From NCBI GenBank assembly GCA_964016885.1, contig CAXHJY010001208.1:1-57165 (forward strand): 57,165 nt of DNA. The letters are read 5' to 3'. The DNA comes from Eledone cirrhosa. Lineage: Eukaryota. Every line of letters begins with the position of its first letter. Positions within the stretch are counted from its first letter, which is position 1. This document shows positions 1,985 to 54,908 of the stretch, in pieces. The notes beneath the pieces were generated by a model that worked only from the letters and a program-made list of their open reading frames with translations, did not search any database and was not told where the DNA came from. The position numbers were made by a program, and so were the translations under genes.

Positions 1985-2679
1985 TACGAACAGCAATGTT
2001 GTATGATAGTGAGACCTGGACGCTGTGTGCGTAGATTGGAAAGAAATGAAGTTTGCATGCTCCAATGGATGTGTAACAATAATATATGTGAACAGCAAAG
2101 CATAAATGAACAGAGAAACTAGGCATAAGAGGAATCAAATGCTGTGTGCTGGAGAGGAGATTATGTATGAAGGATGACAGCTGCATTAAAAGGTGTAGAG
2201 CGCTCAAAGACCATAGAAGCCTTGGAGTGGTGAAACGCAGGAAGACTTGGGATGAGGTGATAAAAGCTGCCTTTGCCCAATTGCACCTCTCAAAGGCGAT
2301 GGCACAGGACCGAGATCTCTGGCGTTACGCAGTAATACAGAAGACCCCCTCCCCCACGGGCACAGGCCGAGGCTGAAGCATATATACAGTATGTCCGACA
2401 CCACCCTTCCACTGTAAAGTGGTCGTGTAGATGTCACGACAAAAAGCACCCAGCCCACACTGTAAAGTGGTCATGTAGGCGTCACGACAAAAAGCACCCA
2501 CTACTCACTGTAAATGAGGTTGGCATTAGGAAAGGCACCCAGTTGTAGAAACCAAGCCAAAATCAGTTCTGTATGAGCAAGACATGGTCACCTGACCTGG
2601 CATGACCCTCAACAGGACAACTCATCTAACCCATGCTAGCGTGGAAAAATAGATGTAAAATGGTGATGATGACGATGAT
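1985..2679 (+). mobile_element. RTE LINE 3' fragment (degenerate)
   Basis: Residual peptides RRLERNEVCMLQWMCN and MKDDSCIKRCRAL...RKTWDEVIK match the 33494-35491 ORF; same 3' UTR and (GAT)n tail. Confidence 0.9.
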
Positions 2680-2795
2680 ATATATATATATATATATATA
2701 TATTATTTGTGAGAAAAACGACAGACCCTCCATCTCAACTCTACTTTTGAAAAGCAGAAGACTCCAGTTGCATTTTCGATTTCATCTTTTTTTCT

Positions 2796-2873
<78 letters not shown>

Positions 2874-2926
2874 AGTGAGATGGAAGCCAGTTAGAGTATA
2901 GCTTAAAGCTTTCTCTGTTAATGTGT

Positions 2927-2984
<58 letters not shown>

Positions 2985-2987
<3 letters not shown>

Positions 2988-3478
2988 ATGTATATATAAT
3001 GTATTTTGCAATACACTTTATGCTTAATTAAATTTGTCACTACTCTAAAACAATAGCATACGGTCTTCAAAATGCTTTTAATTAAGCATAAAGTGTATTG
3101 CAAAATACATTATATATACATCCATATATATATTGCTATTTCAGAGCTCCAATTCTAATTTTTAATTTCTGCCTGACCAACAATCGCTCTGTATAATCAG
3201 TTCCTGATTATTTACTAGAATTCTATAAGAATATAACATCAGTAATCTCAGTAGACAGGAGGGGTAGTTAGCCTTGATAAGCTTCAACAAAAGCGAAACA
3301 AGGCCTTGTCGGCTTATCTCCCCTGTTTGCTGAGATTAAAGTAAGTGAATTTGTCACTACTCTAAAACAATAGCATACGGTCTTCAAAATGCTTTTAATT
3401 AAGCATAAAGTGTATTGCAAAATACATTATATATACATCCATATATATATTGCTATTTCAGAGCACCAATTCTAATTT
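2985..3478 (+). mobile_element. Non-autonomous retrozyme-like/PLE-derived unit (~317-nt period, terminal redundancy, 5' inverted segment)
   Basis: About 130 nt at 3031-3161 recur at 3348-3478; 2985-3032 is the reverse complement of part of that repeat; contains a hammerhead; flanked by (TA)n on both sides; no ORF. Confidence 0.7.
3244..3337 (+). ncRNA. Type I hammerhead ribozyme, U3-A8 core variant
   Basis: TTGATAA (3274-3280), stem II GCTT/AAGC, GAAA (3295-3298), palindromic stem III CAAGGCCTTG, TC site at 3309-3310. Long stem I from AATCTCAGTAGACAGG...AGCC pairing with GGCT...CCTGTTTGCTGAGATT. Confidence 0.85.
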
Positions 3479-3485
3479 ATATATG

Positions 3486-3568
<83 letters not shown>

Positions 3569-4150
3569 AGATAAGCAGAACAAGTAAAATTCAACCAATT
3601 TTTCAAAATAAATCACAATTAATATATAATTAAAATTAATCAAAATTAAAAAATATAATATAAATATTTACCTATTCAAATGGCCCTAACTGTACAGTTT
3701 CACGGTGCAAAACATTAAATATCACGAGGATATTAATGGAAAAGCAACGATCATCAGAGAAACATTTTCCTGTCCTAGGGTTAAAAACCCCAGGAACGAC
3801 AAAATATATGACCTCACTCCAACTAATACAGGTCTAAAAGGTCGTGAAAGTGACCCGTAAATACATTGGTGTATAGTGAAGGCGGGAAATCATAGACTAG
3901 CCGTCTATAATCGCTACTAAAAAAGATTTTTAGCAACTAAATAGATCGACAAAGATTTATCTCTACATACTGGAGATTATTGAATAAGGTTAATATATAT
4001 CTGAGGGTACAATGTACCCCCGGAAATATATAGTGTGTCTATGATTTAAGGTGGTTCTATGGTAATAATTTGATATACCAGAACTTAATATCTAGATAAG
4101 CAGAACAAGTAAAATTCAACCAATTTTTCAAAATAAATCAAAATTAATAT

Positions 4151-4265: not shown

Positions 4266-4421
4266 TATATTTAACTAAAGGAATTTTAGCTTGATAACGG
4301 GGTTTAGAACCCTCAGATAAATGGAAAAAGATGAGTATTGACGTACATGTACGTCAATACTCATCTTTTTCCATTTATCTGAGGGTTCTAAACCCCGTTA
4401 TCAAGCTAAAATTCCTTTAGT

Positions 4422-4429
<8 letters not shown>
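4266..4429. repeat. Perfect 164-bp palindrome (82-bp arms, no spacer)
   Basis: Centre ...GACGTACA|TGTACGTC... at 4347/4348; arms match base for base out to TATATTTAAC/GTTAAATATA. Confidence 0.95.
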
Positions 4430-6453: not shown

Positions 6454-6649
6454 GATAAATCTACTAAGAGTTTACGGTAGTGTCCAATCCATATGAAGAA
6501 CTCAATGTAGTCCGGATATCATGGAAAGAAGAGATGCAATGAAAAATCACTTTCGGTGAAAGATAAACGGAATACAGAGTCAAGATAAAATATTAAAAAA
6601 ATAATGAATAAAACAATGAAACAGTTCCTTATATTAAACAAAAAAAGTT

Positions 6650-6800
6650 CATTATTTAACGATCGTTTCTAGGATATATATGTGTTAGAATTGGCATGCA
6701 TATTCAACAGATCTATGTACAAAATTATACAAAATTATACAAACTATCAAGATTAAATATACATACCAAACACACATATATGCCGTCTTCAGAAATAATC
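6650..6800 (-). ncRNA. Type I hammerhead ribozyme (mirror of 6800-6950)
   Basis: Reverse complement of the + strand copy, with a 7-bp stem I. Confidence 0.8.
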
Positions 6801-6950
6801 ATTATTTCTGAAGACGGCATATATGTGTGTTTGGTATGTATATTTAATCTTGATAGTTTGTATAATTTTGTATAATTTTGTACATAGATCTGTTGAATAT
6901 GCATGCCAATTCTAACACATATATATCCTAGAAACGATCGTTAAATAATG
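6800..6950 (+). ncRNA. Type I hammerhead ribozyme with ~115-nt stem II
   Basis: Stem I CATTATTT/AAATAATG, CTGAAGA (6808-6814), long stem II (ATATATGTGT/ACACATATAT plus an 18-bp G-U-rich helix), GAAA (6931-6934), palindromic stem III CGATCG, TT site at 6941-6942. Confidence 0.85.
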
Positions 6951-7084
6951 AACTTTTTTTGTTTAATATAAGGAACTGTTTCATTGTTTTATTCATTATT
7001 TTTTTAATATTTTATATATATATATATATATTTACATATATTATATACATATATACATATATATATATACATATATATATATAC

Positions 7085-7286: not shown

Positions 7287-7391
7287 ATATATATATATGT
7301 ATATATATATATGTATATATATATATACATATAAATGGTCGCATTCTTTGAAGGGTATGTCAATATTTGTTTATAAAACTGATCTATATTA

Positions 7392-7442
7392 TATTTTATC
7401 TGATGAAAGCGCACCATAATTTGAAATATGTATAATGAAATA
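7392..7442 (+). ncRNA. Minimal type I hammerhead ribozyme
   Basis: TATTTTAT-CTGATGA-AAG...TTT-GAAA-TATGTA-TA-ATGAAATA; 8-bp stem I. Confidence 0.75.
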
Positions 7443-7505
7443 AATATGGTTTTATAAATATAGTTTCCATTTATCAATATATTGTATATGTATATATATA
7501 TATAC

Positions 7506-7564
<59 letters not shown>

Positions 7565-7611
7565 TATATACAATATTAAATAAATGGAAACTATATTTAT
7601 AAAACCATATC

Positions 7612-7677
7612 TATTTCATTATATATATTTCGGGGATATCATATTAACAATATGCTATGCCTTCCTCAGACAAAATA
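7612..7677 (-). ncRNA. Type I hammerhead ribozyme at the 3' end of a minus-strand PLE
   Basis: Minus strand: TATTTTGT-CTGAGGA-[AGGCATAGCATATT GTT AATATGATATCCCC]-GAAA-TATATA-TA-ATGAAATA. Confidence 0.75.
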
Positions 7678-9045
7678 CAATATAAACAGTTTTATAGATA
7701 AATAGATTCGACATACCGTAACAACACCGACTTGCATTTGGAGAGGTTGAGCTGGCAGTGAAAAAATTTTACACAGAGAGAAAGAAAGAGAGAAAGAAGA
7801 AAGAAAGACAGAAAACGAAGAAAAGGAAGAAAAAGAAGAAATGCATGGAACAAAGTAGAGAGATGGAGAGATAGATAAGGAGAAGAGCTTCATGTAAAGA
7901 AACAGAAAGGGATATATATATATAGAGAGAGAGGAAATAGAGATAGATACATATATATATAGAAAATTAGGTAGTGGGAGGTCAGTTGAGTAAATGTATC
8001 AATGGTACATTTATTTATTTATTTATTTATTTATTTAGCTCTAGTATTAATGTAAGGGAGATATATATATAGAGAAAGAATATATAGAGAGAAAAAATAG
8101 CGAGAGAAAAAATTTAAAAAATAGCCAGATATATTCGAGGCGTAAAAAACCCTATGTTTTAATGTATTAGTATTTATAAAACTTCCACTATATTGTAAAT
8201 ATCAGTATTCATGAATGAGACAAGTATCCATAGTGTGTGAAAATTAATTATCTTATGTTTAGTTTTTTTAAAAAAATTCATATGTTTATGTGATAGCTAC
8301 AAACATGTGAATCCACATGATCAACTCTGCAAACTCTAAGTTCACGGAAAACATTCTCAATGTGGTATAAAACTTTGAGTATACAAATATGTGTATTATT
8401 ATTCCTGTCTTTACTCTACAAGATTATCTATCAAGCAGAAATAGAGAGCAGATTTCAATATACTAATAAAAGTATATATCAGAAACAAAACTAAAAAAAA
8501 AATAAAAAATAACAATAATAATAATAAGTAATAATAAAATAGAAAACTAAAAAAATAAAAATATTACGAAAGAATATTACATATTAAGAATATTACATAT
8601 TAAAAAATTTACATATTAAAGATATTAAAAATAAAAAATATTAGAAAATACTAGAAAATACTACAATAATAAAAAATAAAAATAAACCACAAAGATCAAC
8701 CCTTCAAAATTAGTTGACAATATATTGCCAAGTTCATTATAAGCATCAGAGTCGAAAAACAGACAAAGCCAAAAATTATCCATCAAATCACATCTAGCAA
8801 AGATCATTTCAAAAAGTTTATGATGCCCAAAATGGTCTACATGTGTACTTATATTTAATATAGAGGTTTATCTAGTGTAAGGTTTATTCAAAATATTTGG
8901 AGCATCAGCTTTTAGGGTAGCTTAATTTTTCATGAGGAGTGTTTAAATAAAAATAAAATAAAAATAAACAATAAAAAGAATAAAAAGAAGGAATCAAAGA
9001 TTTATCGGCTAGTTTCCCATATAAATATAACACAAACTAAATATA

Positions 9046-9945
9046 CTACATTTTAAATTTAAATTTATATTTAAACGTTGAGTTTAATCTATGTTTGCAA
9101 CAACTGAATAAATTTGTCCGTAGATTAAGGGAATTTTTAGATTTTAGTATAAAGAATATCTCCTCTGCGCAGAGGTCACATGTCTCAGAGGATGAATTAA
9201 AAGGAATCCCTCTTGAGACTATATTCCAAGCCGTCGAATATCTAACGTTATCTAGCTTAAGTTGCCAGAGTACGCCTGATAGTGCCGTTGAAGATTTTTT
9301 GCTTGGATCTGTGAAAGAATTCTTGTGGTTATTATAGCGAAGTTTAAATTCCGTCGATGTGGAACCGACGTAGTTAAAAGAATTAGAGTCAGTATTAACA
9401 TTACAATTGTATACTATATTTTTAACTAAGCAGTTGTTATTTAACGGACATTTAGATCTATCTCTACAGTTACATTTGTTAACTTGTATATTATTTATGC
9501 TATTATCACTAGGTTTTAAGTTCCTATTATTTATTCTATTAATATTTTGTGCTAAATTTTTCGTGGATGAGTAGGTTAATTTAATTGTATGCCTATTGAA
9601 AATTGAGTGATACCTATGTGTTCTAGGGAAGCGATTATCAAGAGCTTTGAAAAATAGTTTAGCGATGTGGGTTTTAATGTTTAGTGAGAAAGGGGGGGCA
9701 AACCAAATTATGTTCCTAGTTCTATTTCTTTTTTGGCCTTTGGAATTATTGTAATGCTTTCTATTATAGTTGTTAAGGTTGTTGCCGTAATTAAAAAAGT
9801 TGTTACTTTGTTTAGTTTGTCTATCATTATCTATGTACACAATCTTATCAGCATATCCTGCTCTAGCTAATGCTTCATTATAGTATTGGGCCTTTTCGTC
9901 GAAAATCTTTCTATTCGACGAGATCCTAGAGATACGTTTTTGAAC
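9046..9945 (-). CDS. PLE RT thumb/linker plus GIY-YIG endonuclease (C-terminal fragment)
   Basis: RNIIWFAPPF linker, CNCRDRSKC (CxCx5C), NIVY...YVGST...FKLRYNNH, CDLC and terminal CKH motifs; no true start. Confidence 0.85.
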   Translation of the reverse strand, partial: VQKRISRISSNRKIFDEKAQYYNEALARAGYADKIVYIDNDRQTKQSNNFFNYGNNLNNYNRKHYNNSKGQKRNRTRNIIWFAPPFSLNIKTHIAKLFFKALDNRFPRTHRYHSIFNRHTIKLTYSSTKNLAQNINRINNRNLKPSDNSINNIQVNKCNCRDRSKCPLNNNCLVKNIVYNCNVNTDSNSFNYVGSTSTEFKLRYNNHKNSFTDPSKKSSTALSGVLWQLKLDNVRYSTAWNIVSRGIPFNSSSETCDLCAEEIFFILKSKNSLNLRTNLFSCCKHRLNSTFKYKFKFKM

Positions 9946-9984
9946 AGAGTTCAAAAACGTATCTCTAGGATCTCGTCGAATAGA
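9910..9984. repeat. Perfect hairpin (36-bp arms, AGA loop) at the PLE-PLE junction
   Basis: TCTATTCGACGAGATCCTAGAGATACGTTTTTGAAC-AGA-GTTCAAAAACGTATCTCTAGGATCTCGTCGAATAGA. Confidence 0.95.
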
Positions 9985-11331
9985 GCTAGTATCAAAACTA
10001 CCCTAAAGGGCCACATATTTAAGTTCAATGAGAAAATCTACACCCAAAATGAGGGAGCAGCCATCGGCGTCAGCATAGCTGGTGATGTTGCCAACCTCTT
10101 CATGGTATGGTGGGAAAGGAGACTTAAAGATCTCCTTAATGAAAGCTCCATAGACCTCATCATGTACTCTCGTTATGTAGACGATATCAATATAGTTATA
10201 AGAACACCCCCACTAGAGAGCACTAACAAGTTTGATTTAGAACGTAGCACGATGGAAAGCATCCAGCAGATAGCTAATTCCATACACCAGAGTATAACTG
10301 TAACTATAGACTTCCCTTCCAAACACCCTAACAATAGACTACCTGTATTAGACACAGAACTCTGGATTAACACTATAGACGAGAGAGCCCAAATTCTCCA
10401 CTCACACTATGCTAAACCCATGGCCTCCAAATACCTGATACTCAAAAACTCAGCAATGTCCAGTAGTGCTAAGTTTAATATTCTGATCGCAGATTTGGTA
10501 CGAGTGATGAAGAATGTGTCCAGCATGTGCGACCCAACAGAAATGGAAGGACACATCCAACACTTCATCAACCGCATGCAGTTCTCTGGCTACAACCAAA
10601 GAGACAGAGTCAGAGTATACGAAGGAGCCATGGAAAAGTATAAGACGCTCATAGAACTGGACATGAAAGGAATTTGCCCACTATACAGGAGCAAATCATG
10701 GAATAGCTTAGATAGGGCTAGACATAAGATAGGGAAGGCCACATCATGGTACGACAACCAGAGATATCAGAGTGTCATGTTTGTGGACGTCACCCCTGGA
10801 GGGAAATTAGCTAACCAGTGTAGAAAGGCCCTGAGAAAGACCCACTTAAAAATAAAGGTGGTAGAAAAGCCAGGAACCACCATAAAATCCCTGATCAGCA
10901 AAACCTACCCTTTTAAGAAAACCCACTGTACCAATAGGAAATGTATCATTTGTAAGGTGAACCCCCGGATAAACTGTAAAACTAGAAACGTAGTCTATAG
11001 CATAAGATGTACAGAGGGTACTTGCAGAAACATGACAACAACATACATAGGTGAGACAGCTCGTAGCATAGGTGAAAGGATAGACCAACACTGGGGGGAA
11101 CTAAAAGGACGAAAAAACGGGTCAGTACTATACGAACATGCTAGACAACAACATGACGGTAACATAGACAACATAGAAATTAGAATAATATCTAAACATA
11201 GGAATGACCCAGCAGATAGGCAAATCAGAGAGGCCAGTGAAATAGAAATTAGAAGACCAAAGCTAAACAGAAAGAATGAGTGGAACAACAACAACACCCA
11301 AACAAACAACACTGACCTAAGAGAAGTATAA
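9985..11331 (+). CDS. Penelope-like (Neptune-type) RT C-terminal half plus GIY-YIG endonuclease, 5'-truncated, uninterrupted
   Basis: YTQNEGAAIG, RYVDDI, LPVLD RT motifs; Cys-rich linker CTNRKCIIC; NVVY...C...C...YIGETAR...R...H...H endonuclease motifs. Confidence 0.9.
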   Translation, partial: ASIKTTLKGHIFKFNEKIYTQNEGAAIGVSIAGDVANLFMVWWERRLKDLLNESSIDLIMYSRYVDDINIVIRTPPLESTNKFDLERSTMESIQQIANSIHQSITVTIDFPSKHPNNRLPVLDTELWINTIDERAQILHSHYAKPMASKYLILKNSAMSSSAKFNILIADLVRVMKNVSSMCDPTEMEGHIQHFINRMQFSGYNQRDRVRVYEGAMEKYKTLIELDMKGICPLYRSKSWNSLDRARHKIGKATSWYDNQRYQSVMFVDVTPGGKLANQCRKALRKTHLKIKVVEKPGTTIKSLISKTYPFKKTHCTNRKCIICKVNPRINCKTRNVVYSIRCTEGTCRNMTTTYIGETARSIGERIDQHWGELKGRKNGSVLYEHARQQHDGNIDNIEIRIISKHRNDPADRQIREASEIEIRRPKLNRKNEWNNNNTQTNNTDLREV

Positions 11332-11596
11332 ATAAGTAAATAAAATTAAATAAAATAAGATAAATAAATACATACACAAGCACATAAACACACACTAGTC
11401 ACCCAGCAGACACAACACTATACACACTAGTCACACATCACACATAACACTATACACACACGCAAACGCATGCGCAAAGAAGACAAAATAAAATAAGATA
11501 AACAAACAAGCAAATAAATAAATAAATATATAGACAGACTGAACAAAAAAAAAATGGCGTAGACATACAACACAACAGGAGGAACAATGAATATAA

Positions 11597-11638
11597 CACC
11601 ACTGACGATGTTGCAGATGTGCAACGAAAGATTTATGT
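11597..11638 (+). ncRNA. Minimal hammerhead-like motif in the PLE 3' region (degenerate)
   Basis: CTGACGA-T-GTTGCA GATG TGCAAC-GAAA-GATT-TA; perfect stem II, weak stems I and III. Confidence 0.5.
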
Positions 11639-11897
11639 AAATTATGTAAACTATATATATGTGTTTGTGTCTATATTGTATCTGTATTATTTTTGACCGC
11701 CGGTCAGTCAATGGCAACATTGAGGACCGAGTAAGTTAGATCGCAGATATATATATATAAAAGACAGCGAGAAGCGAAAACCAACCAAACAGTGAGTGTG
11801 TTCTGTTATTAATTCTGGCAATATTACGCAAATATGACCCTCCCCAAATATAACAATATCTGTTTCGACACACGATTTCATATAAAAAACCTCGCAA

Positions 11898-11949
<52 letters not shown>

Positions 11950-11951
<2 letters not shown>

Positions 11952-13321
11952 TATAAAGCTGCCGGCCGTATGTAGGTAACAAACTTTCCGCCAAACGGCT
12001 TGACCAAACAGCACCAAAGATGTAACTTTTTCCAAGTAAAAAAGTGAGGGTATTTTTATCTACTGAATTTTGTTAAAAGATTAAATACATTATTTAAATA
12101 TTCACTTCTTTAAAATTTCAAATGTCAACACTTCCGGTTATACATCACTCCTCATTTTTTCTTATGACGTCGCACAACATTTCCCTCTTTTTCTTAGTCT
12201 GTATGTCTGACTGTCTGCATTAGATAACGTTTTTCGAAATATTTACTTCTGCGTTCACAGACTGATTTTTTTTAGTTTCAGAAGATCCCGTTAAGGGTGA
12301 AAGCAGCGATTCTTTGCTTAAACTTTAATCTGTTATTTTAATATATATATTCGTGTACAGATATTTTTGCATACACAAAAACAAAAACCTATTTATTTCA
12401 CGAAAGCACAGACGGCTTATCGTCATTGTTACTGTTAGAGGTTAGAGGACCACAGTCTTTCCAAGATCTGAGAACCATCAATGGCCATCAATGTTCCACT
12501 TAGCGTTTGGCTTGCCAGATGCGTGGTATGTTACACGATGACAGCCATTGGCACCTCACCCTGCAAGAAGCAGCAACTGCTAATGTCCCTTCTCAGCTGC
12601 GAAAACTTTTTTCTATTATGCTGCCCAACTGCGATCTCGCCGACCCTCTCGCACTGTGGAACAACCACTGCGAAAGTCTAGCTGAGGACATCCTCCACCG
12701 CACACGCAGACACAATCAGAACGTAACATACGACGTCGTTTTCAATGAGGCGCTCATTTGTCTTGAAAACAGTGTCCTGGAGATTGGTGGTAAGCCTCTA
12801 AGTCACTACAGCTCACCTGCTCCTGACAGGAGTGTTCAGAGGTCAACGTCTACAGAGCTTCTCCGCGAGACGAGCTACGAGATCAGTGATTCTCCCATGG
12901 TCAATTGTATATAAGATGCTCTAGGGTGAGCTCACAAACAATCTCTTCATCTTTGCTCCGGAGGGCCAAACAAAAAATATTGTATACTCTGAGGCTATAA
13001 CAATATAATTTAAATATTTTCTGTTACTTAGAATTTCCATTATGGTTTTACAAATTATTGTTTGTTAAAAAATGTGTTCTCTGTTCAGCCTTTATTGTTG
13101 TAACTATCAATTTTCTTTAACGTACTGGCTGCTGAACTGGGGAATCCTAAAAACTATTCAAACCCAACATCAGAGCGCACGTTAACCCCCCCCCCCCCAA
13201 CCACCACCCTCACTGACTTGAGAGGGGGCACGGTGTCTTTGCACTGGAGTGTAGAGGGCAATTCCTGAAAAGATAAAATGCCGGTATACCTATCCGGACG
13301 CCAGCCGGACGGGCCAGCTAG
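11950..13321 (+). mobile_element. Non-autonomous Helitron with RepHel coding remnants
   Basis: VRGPQSFQDLRTING...GMLHDDSHWHLTLQEA...QLRKLF...PLALW (12440-12900) and NLFIFAPEGQTKNIVY (about 12940-12990) are typical RepHel segments; 3' hairpin TCCGG...CCGGA then CTAG at 13318-13321. Confidence 0.85.
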
Positions 13322-32833: not shown

Positions 32834-33424
32834 TAATAAATATAAATTCATTTTTACCTAATTTCCTCGCTAATTCATTAATATTATTTGCTGATATTTG
32901 CTTATATCTCCCTGCATTCATTGTAGTTTCTATAAACTCCAAATTACTTATGCCTTCATATGATATACAGCCCCATAGCATAACTGAGCTCCTACCATGC
33001 TTTACTGAATGTTTTATATTTTTTGCTTGATACTTTGAATTTGGCATTCTTTTAACACATGATTTCCCATTAGAGCTATAGGGGTTAAACTTGCATTCAT
33101 CTGACCATTTAATGCTTCTAATCTGTGATTTTGTCCATCCAAACATTATTTTAGAAAAGTCAAACCTTCTAGAAATATTTCTTGCAGAGTCTGAATAGTA
33201 GGTTTAAATGATCCAATATTTTTTAGACTTAAAAAACCTGGAAATTGTAGACCTATTCATCTCAACATTAAATTTATCGTTGACCATTTTAATGTATCTG
33301 TATTGTTGGTGAAAAGTTCCTTTTCCACTTTTTCATAATAAACTTTTTAATTTTTAATGAAATTACACTACACCTACCACTTCCTACACAAGGAAACATT
33401 TTCCTCAATCTTTATTACCAATCT

Positions 33425-35790
33425 TGGTGGTGGAACAATAAGGTAGATGAAGCAGTCAAGGCCAAGAGACAGGCATGGAAAGAATGGAAGAACGTGGGGA
33501 GCAGGGTACATTACATAGAGACCAAGAGGGAAGCTAGGCGACAAGTATACTTAGCTAGGAGGGAAGCAGAGGATAGAAAATTCAAGCATGTTTTACAACG
33601 TGAGGACCAGAAACAGGAGGTATTCAAGATTGCGAGGCAGTGTGTCAGAGATAGTTGTGATGTCATTGGAGAGAAGTGTATCCGGAATGATAAAGGTGAG
33701 CTTGCCCTCACAAGTGCTGAGAAGAAAGATGCATGGAAGAGTCATTATGATAGATTACTAAATGAGGAGAATGCATGGGAAGAAGAGACCCTACCCCACG
33801 TAGACCCTATAGAGGGACCAGCAGTACAAGTCAGCGGCAGCGTAGTAAGTAAGGCAATCAGAGATATGAAGATAGGGAAGGCAACCGGTCCATCGGGTAT
33901 AGCTGCCGAGATGCTGAAGGCATCTGGGTCTGTAGGTCACACTATAACCACACGTATCGTTAACCAGGTAATACTAGAGGGGGCCATACCAAAAGATTGG
34001 TGCAGTAGCATCATTGTCAACTGCTACAAAGGTAAAGGCGATGCACTAGATAGAGGAAACTATAGAGGTATAAAGTTGATGGACCAGGTCATGAAAGTAA
34101 CAGAAAGAGTTATAGCACAGCTGATTAGGGACCGGGTGAATATAGACGAGATGCAATTTGGGTTTGTACCAGGGAAAGGCACCACTGATGCCCTCTTCCT
34201 TGTGAGGCAATTACAGGAAAAGTACCTAGCTAAAAGTAAGCCACTCTACTTGGCATTTGTCGACCTTGAGAAAGCCTTTGACAGAGTTCCACGTGCAGTA
34301 ATCTGGTGGGCTCTTAGAAAACTAGGAGTAGATGAATGGCTTGTGAAAGCGGTACAAGCCATGTATAGGGGAGCAGTCAGCAAAGTTAGGATTGGCAATG
34401 AGTATAGCAAGGAATTTAGCGTACAGGTTGGGGTCCACCAGGGCTCTGTTCTTAGCCCTCTCCTGTTCATCATAGTCCTGCAGGCAATAACGGAGGAGTT
34501 TAAGACCGGATGCCCATGGGAACTCCTGTATGCTGATGACCTCGCACTCATAGCTGAATCTATGGTAGAACTAGAGAATAAATTCCAAACCTGGAAGCAG
34601 GGACTAGAGAGAAAGGGCCTCAAAGTCAACATGACAAAGACTAAGGTCCTTATAAGTAGACGAGAAAACAGAACCCAGATCCCCTCAGGGAAATGGCCTT
34701 GCTCAGTATGTAGGAAAGGTGTAGGTAGGAACTCCATTCTCTGCCCCAAATGCAAACAATGGGTACACAAGAGATGTAGCGGGATCTCAGGAAGCTTAAT
34801 TAAGAATGTAGGATTCACATGCAGCAGCTGTGCTGAAACAGCAAGCAAACAGCCACAGGAAACAAGTACCACCAATCTCTGGGAGGGCCCTGTAGAAACA
34901 GTAGACAGCTTCTGCTACCTAGGTGACCGAATTAGCAACGGAGGTGGGTGCTCAGAAAGTACAATAACTAGGGTAAGAACGGGATGGAAGAAGTTTAGGG
35001 AACTACTACCACTGCTAGCTGCAAAAGGCTTCTCCCTCAGAATGAAAGGCAGACTGTATGATGCGTGTATCCGAACAGCGATGTTGCATGGTAGTGAGAC
35101 CTGGGCGCTGAAGGTGGAAGACTTACGTAGATTAGAGAGAAACGAAGCCTGCATGCTCCGATGGATGTGTAACAGTAATATACGTGAACGACAAAGCATA
35201 AAGGAATTGAGAGAGAGACTGAGCATAAGAGGAATCAAATGCTGCGTGCAGGAGAGGCGGTTACGCTGGTATGGACATGTGATGCGTATGAAGGATGACA
35301 GCTGCATAAAAAGGTGCAGAGCACTAGAAGTTGATGGAAACCGCGGAGTGGGGAGACCCAAGATGACTTGGGATGAGGTGATAAAAGCCGACCTTACCCA
35401 ACTACACCTCTCAAAGTCAATGACACACGACCGTGACTTCTGGCGTCACGCAGTAATGCAGGGTACCCGACCTCCCATGGGTACATGCTGAAGCATATAA
35501 ACAATATGCCCCCCCCCCCCCGCAAGGTGGTCGTGGAGGTGCCACGGCAAAAAAGCACCCAGCCCACACTGTAAAGTGGACGTGTAGGCGCCACGAAAAA
35601 GCACCCAGCACTCACTGTAAATGAGGTTGGTGTTAGGAAGGGCATCCAGCTGTAGAAATCAAGCCAGATCAGTTCCTGTATGAGCAAGGCATGGTCAGCC
35701 GACCAGACACTGCCCACAACAGGACAACCCGTCTAACCCATGCTAGCGTGGAAGAATGGACGTAAAACGGTGATGATGATGATGATGATG
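33425..35790 (+). mobile_element. Young 5'-truncated RTE LINE
   Basis: Open frame from 33425 to the stop at 35491, ~270-nt 3' UTR, (GAT)n tail, possible AATCT target duplication (33420-33424 and 35791-35795). Confidence 0.95.
33494..35491 (+). CDS. RTE reverse transcriptase (no APE; truncated) with inserted PHD-like finger
   Basis: NYRGIKL, QFGF, AFVDLEKAFDRV, GVHQGSVLSPLLF, LYADDL, FCYLG, GRPKMTW motifs; uninterrupted 665 aa. Confidence 0.93.
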   Translation: MGSRVHYIETKREARRQVYLARREAEDRKFKHVLQREDQKQEVFKIARQCVRDSCDVIGEKCIRNDKGELALTSAEKKDAWKSHYDRLLNEENAWEEETLPHVDPIEGPAVQVSGSVVSKAIRDMKIGKATGPSGIAAEMLKASGSVGHTITTRIVNQVILEGAIPKDWCSSIIVNCYKGKGDALDRGNYRGIKLMDQVMKVTERVIAQLIRDRVNIDEMQFGFVPGKGTTDALFLVRQLQEKYLAKSKPLYLAFVDLEKAFDRVPRAVIWWALRKLGVDEWLVKAVQAMYRGAVSKVRIGNEYSKEFSVQVGVHQGSVLSPLLFIIVLQAITEEFKTGCPWELLYADDLALIAESMVELENKFQTWKQGLERKGLKVNMTKTKVLISRRENRTQIPSGKWPCSVCRKGVGRNSILCPKCKQWVHKRCSGISGSLIKNVGFTCSSCAETASKQPQETSTTNLWEGPVETVDSFCYLGDRISNGGGCSESTITRVRTGWKKFRELLPLLAAKGFSLRMKGRLYDACIRTAMLHGSETWALKVEDLRRLERNEACMLRWMCNSNIRERQSIKELRERLSIRGIKCCVQERRLRWYGHVMRMKDDSCIKRCRALEVDGNRGVGRPKMTWDEVIKADLTQLHLSKSMTHDRDFWRHAVMQGTRPPMGTC

Positions 35791-49660: not shown

Positions 49661-49711
<51 letters not shown>
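48385..49711. repeat. Compound (TA)n/(TATG)n microsatellite
   Basis: About 1.3 kb; contains TTTTCATTTTGTTTCAA twice. Confidence 0.98.
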
Positions 49712-49712
<1 letters not shown>

Positions 49713-49772
49713 AAATATTAAAAAAATTATGAATAAAACAATGAAACAGTTTCTTATATTAAACAAAAAAAG

Positions 49773-49927
49773 TTCATTATTTAACGATCGTTTCTAGGAT
49801 ATATATGTGTTAGAATTGGCATGCATATTCAACAGATCTATGTACAAAATTATACAAAATTATACAAACTATCAAGATTAAATATACATACCAAACACAC
49901 ATATATGCCGTCTTCAGAAATAATGAA
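49773..49927 (-). ncRNA. Type I hammerhead ribozyme, near-identical to 6800-6950
   Basis: 10-bp stem I TTCATTATTT/AAATAATGAA, CTGAAGA, long stem II, GAAA-CGATCG-TT; lies within an element spanning about 49712-50178. Confidence 0.85.
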
Positions 49928-51166: not shown

Positions 51167-51294
51167 AAATGTAGGAGGTGAGTTTTATTGTAGTACAATA
51201 AAGCAATGCAGATATCGGATAAGAAGCACTCTACAGTTTGTGGGACTGGAGTATGCATAATATAAGATCAAAAGATGGTTAAAGGAGTTCAATA

Positions 51295-51365
51295 TATTTT
51301 ATTATGCGCATTTCAAAAACAAACATCATCAAACAATAATATTTGTGTTTTCATCAGATAAAACA
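51295..51365 (-). ncRNA. Type I hammerhead ribozyme (inverted copy of 54661-54731)
   Basis: Reverse complement of 54661-54731. Confidence 0.85.
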
Positions 51366-52621
51366 GGAGAACATGATATGAAGGCTAAAAAAACACTTGT
51401 TGATAGTGCAGTTTTAAATCAACATATGAAAAGTGGTTTTAGATTGATGTGTGATATTGGGAAAAATATTTTATTTAGAGAGGGGGGGAGAGAAAAGGAT
51501 GAAAAGGGAAGGAGATGAGAGGGAGAGATGGGTGATAGAGAGAAAGAGATAGTTTTTATAACAGAGAGGAGATATATTTTATATAGAGGGGTTGAAAACC
51601 GTTGGAAGATACTGTATAAATTAAAAATTTTGAAAATAAACGAAGGGAGGATATGTGCGAGGAAAAAATATATTATATTTAGGGAGGGGTGGGGGTGGAA
51701 AGGATGAAAAAAAGGGAGGAGATGAGAGTGAAGGTGGAAAGGGAGAGATGGGTGATAGAGAGAAAGAGATAGTTTTTATAACTGAGAAAAAGATATAATG
51801 TTTTAATATAGAGAGGTTGGGAACCGTTGGAAGATAATGTATAAATTAAAGGAATTTGAAAATTAACGAAGGGAAATTATGTATGGAGATAGAGAGAAAA
51901 AAATAACGAAGGGAGATTATGTATGGAGATAGAGAGAAAAAAAATAATAATTGTGGGTGAATATTCAAAAGGAGAAATGTAGGAATCTTAAAATTAGCAA
52001 AGAGAAAAAGTTTATGTATAGGATTTGAGAAAAATTTATATTGAATTCATATGTATTAATAATGAGTTCGTTGATGGGGAGAAAAAAATAATAATAATAA
52101 ATTAAGGATGAAATTGAGATTAAAAAGATTTATGATAGAGAGAAAAAAAAAATAATAATGATTGCGGATGAATACTCAAAATGTCAAAAACAAATGTTAT
52201 TGTTTTACGAAGAGATATAATGAGGGTGATGAGTAAACGGGTATTATAGAGTGTATAATGCCCTTTAAAGTAAGGTAGATGGGTATATTTTAAAGAATAT
52301 ATGAGTATATATTAAAAAAAATATATATAATAATAAATTAAGGATGAAATTGAGATTAAAAAGATTTATGATAGAGGGAAAAAAAAAAAAAAATAATAAT
52401 GATTGCGGATGAATATTCAAAATGTCAAAAACAAATGTTATTGTTTTACGAGAAGATAGGATGAGGTAAATGAATAAACGAGTACTATAGAGTGTATAAT
52501 GCCCTTTAAAGTAAGGTAGATGGGTATATTTTAAAGAGGTGTATGTATATGTGCCTTTGAGCACTTAATGGTGTGTTTGTTAAATATTTTACTATAGATA
52601 TGTGAGGGAGGGAAGCATTTA

Positions 52622-53437
52622 TTTATTTTTAGTGCCTTAAATAAATGCTTCCCTCCCTCACATATCTATAGTAAAATATTTAACAAACACACCATTAAAT
52701 TTTCGTATTCTACATCCTCCAATATTTCCAACATCATTTCTAAACACAACAACAAAATATTAAATACTAAATCTCTTCCTTCCAATATTGAATCTCATAA
52801 TAACAATAATAGTACTCCTGACGTCATTGTAAACCCTAGGCTAACTTCTGTAAACCCAAATGCAACGTCAAACACAACTTCGCTAAATGTTCATAATCCA
52901 ACTCTAAATCAAGAAACTATTATTCCTATTATTCCTATCGCAAACAACTTCTCCAATCCAATTCCTTCTATAGATAACACTAGATCACTCATTAATAATC
53001 TCTCTAATTGCAACTGCCGCATTAAAAATAAATGTCCTCTCAACAACCATTGCCTCGATAAAAACTTAATTTATGAATGTAAAATTATAACTAGCACCAA
53101 CTCCTTCACCTATTTTGGCTCCACTTCCACCTCTTTTAAAGCTCGTCTCTATAATCATCATTCATCTTTCAAATACAAACTTAAAAGAACTAACACTGCT
53201 CTCTCAGAACTCATATGGTCCTTAAAAGACAAAAACATTAAATATAACATCTTTTGGAAAAAGATTTCTTCTGCATCCTCGTACTTGAACAGTTCTCTAT
53301 CTAAAATCTGTAATCTCTGCCTAAATGAAAAATTTACCATTATCTCTAACCTAGAATCCATAATAAATAGACGCTCGGATTTGTTTTCCATCTGCCTTCA
53401 TAAATTCCATAGAACTTTTCACAAAGTATACAGTTAA
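52622..53437 (+). CDS. PLE linker plus GIY-YIG endonuclease fragment (no Met, absent from the ORF track)
   Basis: Manual translation: FSALNKCFPPSHIYSKIFNKHTIKFSYS...CNCRIKNKCPLNNHCLDKNLIYEC...TYFGSTSTSFKARLYNH...CNLC...CLH, stop at 53435-53437; homologous to 9046-9945. Confidence 0.85.
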   Translation, partial: FIFSALNKCFPPSHIYSKIFNKHTIKFSYSTSSNISNIISKHNNKILNTKSLPSNIESHNNNNSTPDVIVNPRLTSVNPNATSNTTSLNVHNPTLNQETIIPIIPIANNFSNPIPSIDNTRSLINNLSNCNCRIKNKCPLNNHCLDKNLIYECKIITSTNSFTYFGSTSTSFKARLYNHHSSFKYKLKRTNTALSELIWSLKDKNIKYNIFWKKISSASSYLNSSLSKICNLCLNEKFTIISNLESIINRRSDLFSICLHKFHRTFHKVYS

Positions 53438-54660
53438 TATTCAATTCTTTATCAATTTAGAATCTTTTCTCAAAGGCACATATACATACACCTCTTTAAA
53501 ATATACCCATCTACCTTACTTTAAAGGGCATTATACACTCTATAGTACTCGTTTATTCATTTACCTCATCCTATCTTCTCGTAAAACAATAACATTTGTT
53601 TTTGACATTTTGAATATTCATCCGCAATCATTATTATTTTTTTTTTTCCCTCTATCATAAATCTTTTTAATCTCAATTTCATCCTTAATTTATTATTATA
53701 TATATTTTTTTTAATATATACTCATATATTCTTTAAAATATACCCATCTACCTTACTTTAAAGGGCATTATACACTCTATAATACCCGTTTACTCATCAC
53801 CCTCATTATATCTCTTCGTAAAACAATAACATTTGTTTTTGACATTTTGAGTATTCATCCGCAATCATTATTATTTTTTTTCTCTCTATCATAAATCTTT
53901 TTAATCTCAATTTCATCCTTAATTTATTATTATTATTTTTTTCTCCCCATCAACGAACTCATTATTAATACATATGAATTCAATATAAATTTTTCTCAAA
54001 TCCTATACATAAACTTTTTCTCTTTGCTAATTTTAAGATTCCTACATTTCTCCTTTTGAATATTCACCCACAATTATTATTTTTTTTTCTCTCTATCTCC
54101 ATACATAATCTCCCTTCGTTATTTTTTTCTCTCTATCTCCATACATAATTTCCCTTCGTTAATTTTCAAATTCCTTTAATTTATACATTATCTTCCAACG
54201 GTTCCCAACCTCTCTATATTAAAACATTATATCTTTTTCTCAGTTATAAAAACTATCTCTTTCTCTCTATCACCCATCTCTCCCTTTCCACCTTCACTCT
54301 CATCTCCTCCCTTTTTTTCATCCTTTCCACCCCCACCCCTCCCTAAATATAATATATTTTTTCCTCGCACATATCCTCCCTTCGTTTATTTTCAAAATTT
54401 TTAATTTATACAGTATCTTCCAACGGTTTTCAACCCCTCTATATAAAATATATCTCCTCTCTGTTATAAAAACTATCTCTTTCTCTCTATCACCCATCTC
54501 TCCCTCTCATCTCCTTCCCTTTTCATCCTTTTATCTCCCCCCCTCTCTAAATAAAATATTTTTCCCAATATCACACATCAATCTAAAACCACTTTTCATA
54601 TGTTGATTTAAAACTGCACTATCAACAAGTGTTTTTTTTAGCCTTCATATCATGTTCTCC

Positions 54661-54731
54661 TGTTTTATCTGATGAAAACACAAATATTATTGTTTGATGA
54701 TGTTTGTTTTTGAAATGCGCATAATAAAATA
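54661..54731 (+). ncRNA. Type I hammerhead ribozyme at the PLE 3' end
   Basis: TGTTTTAT-CTGATGA-[AAACACAAATATTATT...GATGATGTTTGTTTTT]-GAAA-TGCGCA-TA-ATAAAATA. Confidence 0.85.
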
Positions 54732-54908
54732 TATTGAACTCCTTTAACCATCTTTTGATCTTATATTATATATATATGTATATATATATGTATATATATA
54801 TATATGTATATATATATGTATATATATATGTATATATATATATATATGTATATATATATGTATATATATGTATATATATATGTATATATATATATATGTA
54901 TATATATG

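What the first reader, a model, noticed from the sequence alone, without database searches (positions are those of the whole stretch)
7571..11740. Two different PLE types fused head-to-head through a perfect hairpin
A minus-strand Hydra-like PLE and a plus-strand Neptune-like PLE are both 5'-truncated with open frames. They join directly, with no TA or target duplication, via a 36-bp fold-back of the first. Both 3' ends point outward toward TA tracts and carry hammerhead motifs. This mirrors 51170-54769 but uses two unrelated RNAs. Inference: one integration event involving twin priming or template jumping across PLE clades.
Basis: partly seen in the sequence, partly recalled or inferred. Interest (0 to 1): 0.72.

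Follow-up and report, generated by a model that had tools for sequence, protein, structure and literature searches.

The report
Mixed-clade two-armed Penelope insertion
Two unrelated, very young Penelope-type jumping genes sit joined back to back in a TA repeat, and at least six other mixed pairs occur in the same genome; they likely arise when the two ends of one DNA break are each extended from a different element's RNA, a clue to how this poorly understood class inserts.

Summary
A Hydra-clade element (H, minus strand, 7571-9951) meets a second element (N, 9985-11900) head-to-head through a 36-bp hairpin. Two corrections: N's endonuclease linker is Nematis-type, not Neptune, and N ends at 11900, not 11740. 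The hairpin is a 33-nt extension of a native 3-bp stem in H, as in same-family insertions. Two-armed insertion is the norm here: 65 of 86 sampled N-tail insertions are same-family pairs. In 62 measured pairs, 60 have one tail-less and one tailed end, and arms share source variants (16/358 discordant versus 29% at random). The window has that layout with two families. It is not unique: 6 of 86 N-tail insertions have a foreign head-to-head partner (4 ORF-proven); 0 of 68 tail-less N arms and 0 of 60 H insertions do. Best reading (0.6): one break, two RNAs, snap-back, end-joining. Main rival (0.25): later deletion fusing neighbouring insertions. No empty site or junction-spanning read was found. 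Two-RNA inserts are known for L1. The scan noted two-armed insertions, and one mixed repeat pair, on other DNA of this genome.

The parts
7487..7569 (.). Left (TA)n tract, target of the H arm
   Evidence: sequence
7571..9951 (-). H arm: 5'-truncated Hydra-clade PLE, tail-less 3' end
   Evidence: matches H reference 1382 to about 3733; the family's other end lies 70 nt further; 1 private substitution in 906 bp against 29 copies
7628..7669 (-). Hammerhead-like core of H (CUGAGGA...GAAA); about 8-bp helix I and palindromic helix III by eye
   Evidence: pattern hit; sequence; not an Rfam hit
9046..9951 (-). Open frame of H: RT thumb, CxCx5C linker, GIY-YIG endonuclease without CCHH
9943..9951 (+). 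Native 3-bp stem with 3-nt loop at the H truncation point; likely snap-back primer
   Evidence: present in the other H copies listed; folds in the modelled cDNA end, -0.4 kcal/mol
9952..9984 (+). 33-nt fold-back copy of H completing the 36-bp hairpin 9910-9984
9985..11900 (+). N arm: 5'-truncated PLE with Nematis-type endonuclease linker, tail-bearing 3' end (reference position 4077)
   Evidence: 99.3% to N reference 2167-4077; 3 private substitutions in 1347 bp against 29 copies
9985..11331 (+). Open frame of N: RT motifs 4-7, thumb, CX4CxxC linker, GIY-YIG with CCHH
   Evidence: (RVT_1 E 0.0039, below cut-off)
11602..11629 (+). Hammerhead-like core of N (CUGACGA, 6-bp helix II, GAAA)
   Evidence: not an Rfam hit
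11860..11900 (+). Tail of N, beyond the tail-less end site (reference 4034 = window 11859)
   Evidence: end positions in 62 pairs and end histogram
11901..11950 (.). Right (TA)n tract, target of the N arm
   Evidence: sequence

Best explanation
This is likely one two-ended insertion in which the left end of a cut (TA)n tract primed reverse transcription of H RNA, the right end primed an unrelated N RNA, the H cDNA snapped back on a native 3-bp stem for 33 nt, and the two cDNA ends were then joined. Shown: the layout, the family-specific ends, the native stem, the same layout in same-family insertions, and other mixed pairs. Inferred: that the arms were made at one time; that each RNA was copied by its own enzyme (each arm stops at its family's usual end); that the join used a near-microhomology (AATAG, 1-2 nt off the break); and that the two flanks were once one tract. 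In ordinary insertions both arms come from one source; when the snap-back strand finds a homologous second cDNA the result would be a perfect palindrome (11 of 62 pairs are truncated within 40 nt of each other), and when it finds a foreign one it would stop short, as here.
For: Same-family N pairs: 60 of 62 have one end at about 4034 and one at 4077-4089 (8 of the 62 come from best-hit loci, the rest from the pattern sample). The window has tail-less H plus tailed N. Short fold-backs between the arms also occur in same-family insertions: L062, L197, L004 and window 52565-52698. Both arms are among the youngest copies: 1/906 and 3/1347 private substitutions; L203 has 1/553 and 2/1985. Recurrence: of 86 insertions behind the first 100 N-tail hits on C1, 6 have a foreign head-to-head partner whose 3' end lies at TA (L122, L146, L151, L203 with PLE ORF evidence; L144, L147 by hammerhead-like motif and TA habit only). 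These are 6 of the 9 resolved 5' joints that are neither same-family nor TA, whereas foreign PLE in that orientation is 5.4% of non-TA flank in 45 control loci (binomial p 2e-6; 1e-4 if the fraction is doubled). N tail arms 6/86 versus N tail-less arms 0/68 (Fisher p 0.035); random deletion should hit both alike. L144 and L203 carry pieces of N antisense between the foreign arm and the N arm, three skipping pieces in L144, as template hopping would leave. A shared 5-mer this close to both breaks has about 1% chance (noticed after the fact). Literature: a purified PLE protein cleaves and extends both strands, has two RT start sites that define the tail, and is predicted to be a dimer (PMC11167929).
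Against: No empty site: the assembly holds no allelic copy of two flanking stretches (best other hits 93% and 87%), and none of six runs laid shows this joint among the joints listed (the lists are cut, the RAD runs cover the spot thinly, and the samples differ from the assembly). The one-tail rule is not kept by the other mixed pairs: L122, L151 and L203 are tail plus tail; the window and L144 are tail-less plus tail; two are unknown. 0 of 60 H insertions had a foreign partner. With only the four ORF-proven cases the tail asymmetry is not significant (p 0.13), and L272, in a diverged sister family, has a foreign tail piece joined to a tail-less arm. L151's arms differ in private substitutions (6/1477 versus 9/674). 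The flank control uses a library built from these loci, so it undercounts foreign PLE.
Confidence: 0.6

Rival explanations
1. Sequential origin: separate H and N insertions in one TA hot spot were fused later by a deletion (or H inserted beside N and deleted N's other arm). The 36-bp arm is then the remnant of a perfect H palindrome.
For: PLE insertions cluster at TA tracts. Perfect palindromes are common (11 of 62; window 4266-4429 and 6585-7015) and long palindromes are deletion-prone (established knowledge, not tested). The mixed tail status of partners (3 tailed, 2 tail-less) is what random fusion gives. The N antisense pieces in L203 and L144 could be remnants of N's lost arm. AATAG could be a deletion microhomology.
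Against: Joints land in head-to-head foreign PLE far more often than flank content predicts; only 1 head-to-tail case (L155). 0 of 68 tail-less N arms are fused. The break would have to fall 36 bp from the H centre. Both arms are equally young. L144 would need three deletions.
Confidence: 0.25
2. Bridge: H and N were inserting at two different TA tracts at one time and their cDNAs were joined, so the composite marks a deletion, inversion or translocation.
For: L1 precedent: a bridge of two 5'-truncated elements joined at their 5' ends at a rearrangement (bioRxiv 10.1101/2024.08.27.596794, passages). Tail plus tail partners suit two independent complexes. Both window flanks are repeats that end at the TA tracts, so continuity cannot be read from them.
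Against: No direct sign of a rearrangement was found. The window keeps the one-of-each end rule of single insertions.
Confidence: 0.1
3. Assembly or library chimera joining two repeat reads through a hairpin.
For: The window is a whole unplaced 57-kb contig; no read support for this joint.
Against: The joint uses a native stem and ends at family-specific sites. The same layout occurs in chromosome-scale contigs, and opposite-strand joints within N and within H appear in Illumina reads of three other samples, several at the same place in all three.
Confidence: 0.05

Closest known systems
EN+ PLE insertions with an inverted 5'-truncated copy, junction palindromes and a one-sided tail (PMC8557442 Fig. 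2 legend; PMC3846280)
   Same: Head-to-head arms, tail at one end, palindrome at the inverted joint read as self-priming, (TA)n target.
   Different: In the passages seen the two arms belong to one family; here they are from clades whose proteins do not align.
Poseidon_Ac in vitro TPRT (PMC11167929)
   Same: Two RT start sites define the tail; both strands are cleaved and extended; predicted dimer. This matches the two end classes counted here.
   Different: One RNA species in vitro; joining of the arms and use of two RNAs were not examined in the parts read.
L1 insertions from two RNAs in opposite orientation (PMC11702581, section 7) and L1 bridges from synchronous insertions (bioRxiv 10.1101/2024.08.27.596794)
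   Same: Opposite DNA ends extended from different templates and then ligated, with microhomology or untemplated bases.
   Different: One enzyme family, somatic or experimental cells, poly(A) priming. Here two PLE clades, family-specific internal start sites, and inherited copies at about 5-7% of one family's tail arms.
L1 twin priming (as described in bioRxiv 10.1101/2024.08.27.596794)
   Same: Both nicks prime, and the cDNAs are joined by microcomplementarity.
   Different: One RNA; the second primer anneals at a chance internal site, so only one true 3' end results. Here both arms carry a true 3' end.

Membership tests
Hydra clade (H) | RWK-type N-terminal motif and DKT in place of DKG | tested here: met
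   RWR at 45 and DKT at 126 of the full-length ORF L074; definition
Hydra clade (H) | CxCX5C linker, C-terminal GIY-YIG, no CCHH, CxxC and CxH around the conserved E and N | tested here: met
   CNCRDRSKC at 604, no CX2-5CxxC; CDLC..EE and NL..CKH in the window ORF
Hydra clade (H) | Insertion into (TA)n; hammerhead motif in the end repeat | tested here: met
   ends at TA; core by pattern and helices by eye; no Rfam hit
Hydra clade (H) | Groups with Hydra RTs in a tree | not testable with these tools
   no labelled reference PLE proteins could be brought into the tree tools
Neptune clade (N) | C-terminal GIY-YIG with CCHH and a CX2-5CxxC linker | tested here: met
   CTNRKCIIC at 1037, two cysteines inside GIY-YIG, two later histidines; shared with Nematis
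Neptune clade (N) | Long spacer (about 25-30 aa) between CxxC and the cysteine before GIY, as in the four Neptune-type rows of Fig. S2 of PMC8557442 | tested here: not met
   7 aa in N against the alignment read; my reading of the figure rows, not a stated criterion
Nematis clade (N) | CX4-5CxxC followed after 7 aa by the cysteine before GIY | tested here: met
   same spacing as the three Nematis rows of Fig. S2
Nematis clade (N) | Short RT3(A)-RT4(B) interval, no insertion in fingers | tested here: not met
   131 aa in N versus 63 aa in H; the C_remanei and Pristionc rows of Fig. S1, which I take to be Nematis, are short. N is Nematis-like in EN only; clade left open
Canonical two-armed PLE insertion | One tail-less and one tail-bearing 3' end pointing outward | tested here: met
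Canonical two-armed PLE insertion | Both arms from one family and source | tested here: not met
   same-family arms share variants
Canonical two-armed PLE insertion | Single target site (empty allele or target duplication) | tested here: inconclusive
   TA tracts hide duplications; no allelic locus and no informative reads

The most novel reading that the evidence does not exclude
Penelope-like elements of different clades routinely share one DNA break: each primes its own RNA at its own start site on opposite ends and the cDNAs are joined. In this genome that yields about 5-7% of N tail arms, roughly 90-140 inherited mixed insertions if the C1 sample is representative, and some may bridge separate TA tracts as germline rearrangements.
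Probability: 0.55. Interest if true: 0.7.

Novelty: new variant of a known kind. Interest (0 to 1): 0.52.

Why it matters
How PLEs make their inverted 5' arm is an open question (PMC8557442 names it; PMC3846280 proposed self-priming on an antisense template). Mixed-clade pairs act as natural tracers: an arm from an unrelated RNA cannot be a copy of the other arm, so, if they form in one event, both DNA ends are primed separately and the arms are joined afterwards. That makes the two-ended model testable in the existing in vitro system, and it suggests a route to chimeric elements and to rearrangements at microsatellites.

Tried and rejected
Simple nesting: no remainder of either element on the far side. 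The composite as a mobile unit or duplication: the whole 9046-11331 query matched across the joint only in the window among 40 scored of 2836 candidates, so other copies are not excluded but none was seen. Single-RT template jump from H RNA to N RNA: wrong polarity. Empty site: none in the assembly. Reads: runs X3-X8 do not list this joint. One H 9079 to N 11261 joint in run X6 (19 reads) was set aside: by my reckoning only about 17 AT-rich bases lie on the H side, and it is not among the rows shown, whose stretch did not reach 11261. An early idea that N's main copies end at 11745 was an artefact of my query end and was dropped. A rule that only tail-less arms fold back: 5 cases (window twice, L061, L062, L197) but 2 tailed arms also do (L078, L171), so rejected. 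Flank continuity at the other mixed pairs: right flanks printed for 7 of 9 loci and none visibly continued the left flank, which is uninformative at TA hot spots. Rfam gave no hammerhead hits. No tree was built for lack of labelled references. No fold, complex or protein-database search was run.
Full report
Observation. The window is a whole unplaced contig of a 3.0-Gb animal genome. Between TA tracts at 7487-7569 and 11901-11950 lie a minus-strand element H (7571-9951), a 33-nt fold-back (9952-9984) and a plus-strand element N (9985-11900). The hairpin has perfect 36-bp arms and an AGA loop. Both frames are open and both elements are 99-100% identical to copies elsewhere. Exact 24-mers count 3216 matches for H's ribozyme region and 2307 for N's tail. 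The full proteins do not align.

Identity. H meets the Hydra motifs that could be tested: RWR, DKT, CxCX5C, no CCHH. N has a C-terminal GIY-YIG with CCHH and CX4CxxC. Its 7-aa spacer to the next cysteine equals the three Nematis rows, not the Neptune-type rows (about 25-30 aa), of Fig. S2 in PMC8557442. Its RT3-RT4 interval is 131 aa, twice H's 63, so its clade stays open. Hammerhead cores are present by pattern; Rfam does not call them.

The joint. Other H copies read AAC-TCT-GTT at the truncation point, a 3-bp stem, so the cDNA end could prime on itself and only 33 nt are new. N begins with no exact overlap, but both native sequences carry AATAG 1-2 nt before the break (about 1% by chance, noticed after the fact). 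L122 and L147 show similar imperfect 2-8 nt overlaps; L151 has 1 nt and L203 none.

The normal insertion. I fetched the DNA behind the first 100 N-tail matches on C1 (86 insertions) and classed the 5' joints by hand: 65 same-family head-to-head, 10 against TA, 6 foreign PLE-type head-to-head, 3 ambiguous (L121 a LINE, L132 an assembly gap, L143 a short TA run between), 1 nested LINE (L111), 1 head-to-tail (L155). In 62 measurable same-family pairs (54 from this sample, 8 from best-hit loci) 60 have one end at about 4034 and one at 4077-4089. In the 51 pairs with 60 bp or more of overlap the arms disagree at 16 of 358 polymorphic sites, against 29% (range 22-36%) for random arms, so both arms usually come from one source; later gene conversion was not excluded. 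The pair at 51170-54769 differs at 1 of 1289 sites. Short fold-backs between arms occur in such pairs too (L004, L062, L197, 52565-52698). The window has this layout, with H tail-less and N tailed.

Recurrence. The six mixed pairs involve three other Hydra-type families (L151, the family of 51170-54769; L122; L203), one family whose EN linker has the long Neptune-type spacer by my reading (L146, also with a fold-back), and two families known only by a hammerhead-like motif and TA habit (L144, L147; the L144 family also lies inside a Helitron-like repeat, so it is the weakest). They are 6 of 9 resolved non-self, non-TA joints, while foreign PLE in that orientation fills 5.4% of non-TA flank in 45 control loci. 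For tail-less N ends (2211 matches) I took the 87 hits in the same interval: 37 lie with a tail hit, and 50 were fetched, of which 19 belong to a diverged sister family and were dropped. None of the 68 N arms had a foreign PLE partner; one of the 19 dropped did (L272). For H, 100 hits gave 60 insertions, 34 paired by position and 26 fetched, none mixed. By hand, 4-6 of 86 scales to about 90-140 mixed N insertions genome-wide if C1 is typical.

Mechanism. Most likely one (TA)n break was primed on both ends, the left from H RNA at H's tail-less site and the right from N RNA at its tail site. Support is the end layout, equal youth (1/906 and 3/1347 private substitutions), the orientation excess, the tail-arm excess (p 0.035, but 0.13 with ORF-proven cases only) and hopping pieces of N in L144 and L203. 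Against: three of the other mixed pairs are tail plus tail, H shows no other case, L151's arms differ in age estimate, and there is no empty site or spanning read. Later deletion between neighbouring palindromes gives the same sequence and keeps 0.25; a bridge between two tracts keeps 0.1; an artefact 0.05.

Literature. Seen: PMC8557442 (passages, section 11, a supplement search and part 54 of 59 of its supplement); PMC11167929 (parts 1-2 of 4 of the text); PMC3846280, PMC4209133, PMC13282606 and bioRxiv 10.1101/2024.08.27.596794 (passages); PMC11702581 (passages and section 7); bioRxiv 10.64898/2026.07.22.740005 (abstract and outline). Inverted arms, junction palindromes and tails are known for PLEs, and opposite-orientation two-RNA inserts are known for L1. 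Seven searches listed no report of cross-clade PLE pairs. The library lacks most subscription papers, and preprint supplements were closed, so absence from print is not established. Earlier scan notes on this genome describe the two-armed layout and one mixed repeat pair; the end rule and the mixed pairs here were counted before those look-ups.

Verdict. Real, recurrent, and a new variant of a known kind. Interest 0.52: useful to specialists as a tracer of the PLE insertion mechanism, limited by the missing empty site and by the L1 precedent.

Noticed in passing
L070:5109-8618 (full N ORF): The N family has a 131-aa RT3-RT4 interval (insertion-in-fingers-like) and a long Asn/His-rich N-terminal insert, with a C-terminal endonuclease; canonical C-terminal EN+ PLEs are described as lacking such an insertion.
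   Followed up: partly
window 6585-7015 and 4266-4429: Perfect mini-palindromes (214-bp and 81-bp arms) between TA tracts; one arm of the first recurs at 49710-49924 at 99%.
   Followed up: partly
window 7336-7486: Solo plus-strand end of a related Hydra-type family with a hammerhead core, tail-to-tail with H across the TA tract.
   Followed up: partly
window 51170-54769: Same-family Hydra pair; tail on the minus arm, about 60-nt fold-back from the tail-less plus arm at a native 6-bp stem; arms differ at 1 of 1289 sites.
   Followed up: yes
window 11951-13320: Older multi-copy repeat (88-94% to other copies) with Helitron-helicase-like residues by eye; it carries the 125-nt piece (12226-12349) of the family that partners N in L144.
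   Followed up: partly
L297: A tail-less N arm is preceded by a 40-nt inverted copy of DNA from the opposite flank of the insertion.
   Followed up: partly
N family, loci L061-L207: No arm in the 62 pairs ends at the internal 12-14-nt TA run (reference about 3920), although it offers the best match to a TA target; end choice is not set by DNA microhomology alone.
   Followed up: partly
L071:4665-5339: A 3'-truncated endonuclease piece of another Hydra-type family is joined tail-to-tail to an inverted H leader; not counted as a mixed pair.
   Followed up: no
window 33293-35491: Open 732-aa RT frame with a PHD finger (RTE-like LINE), with several decayed relatives in the window.
   Followed up: no
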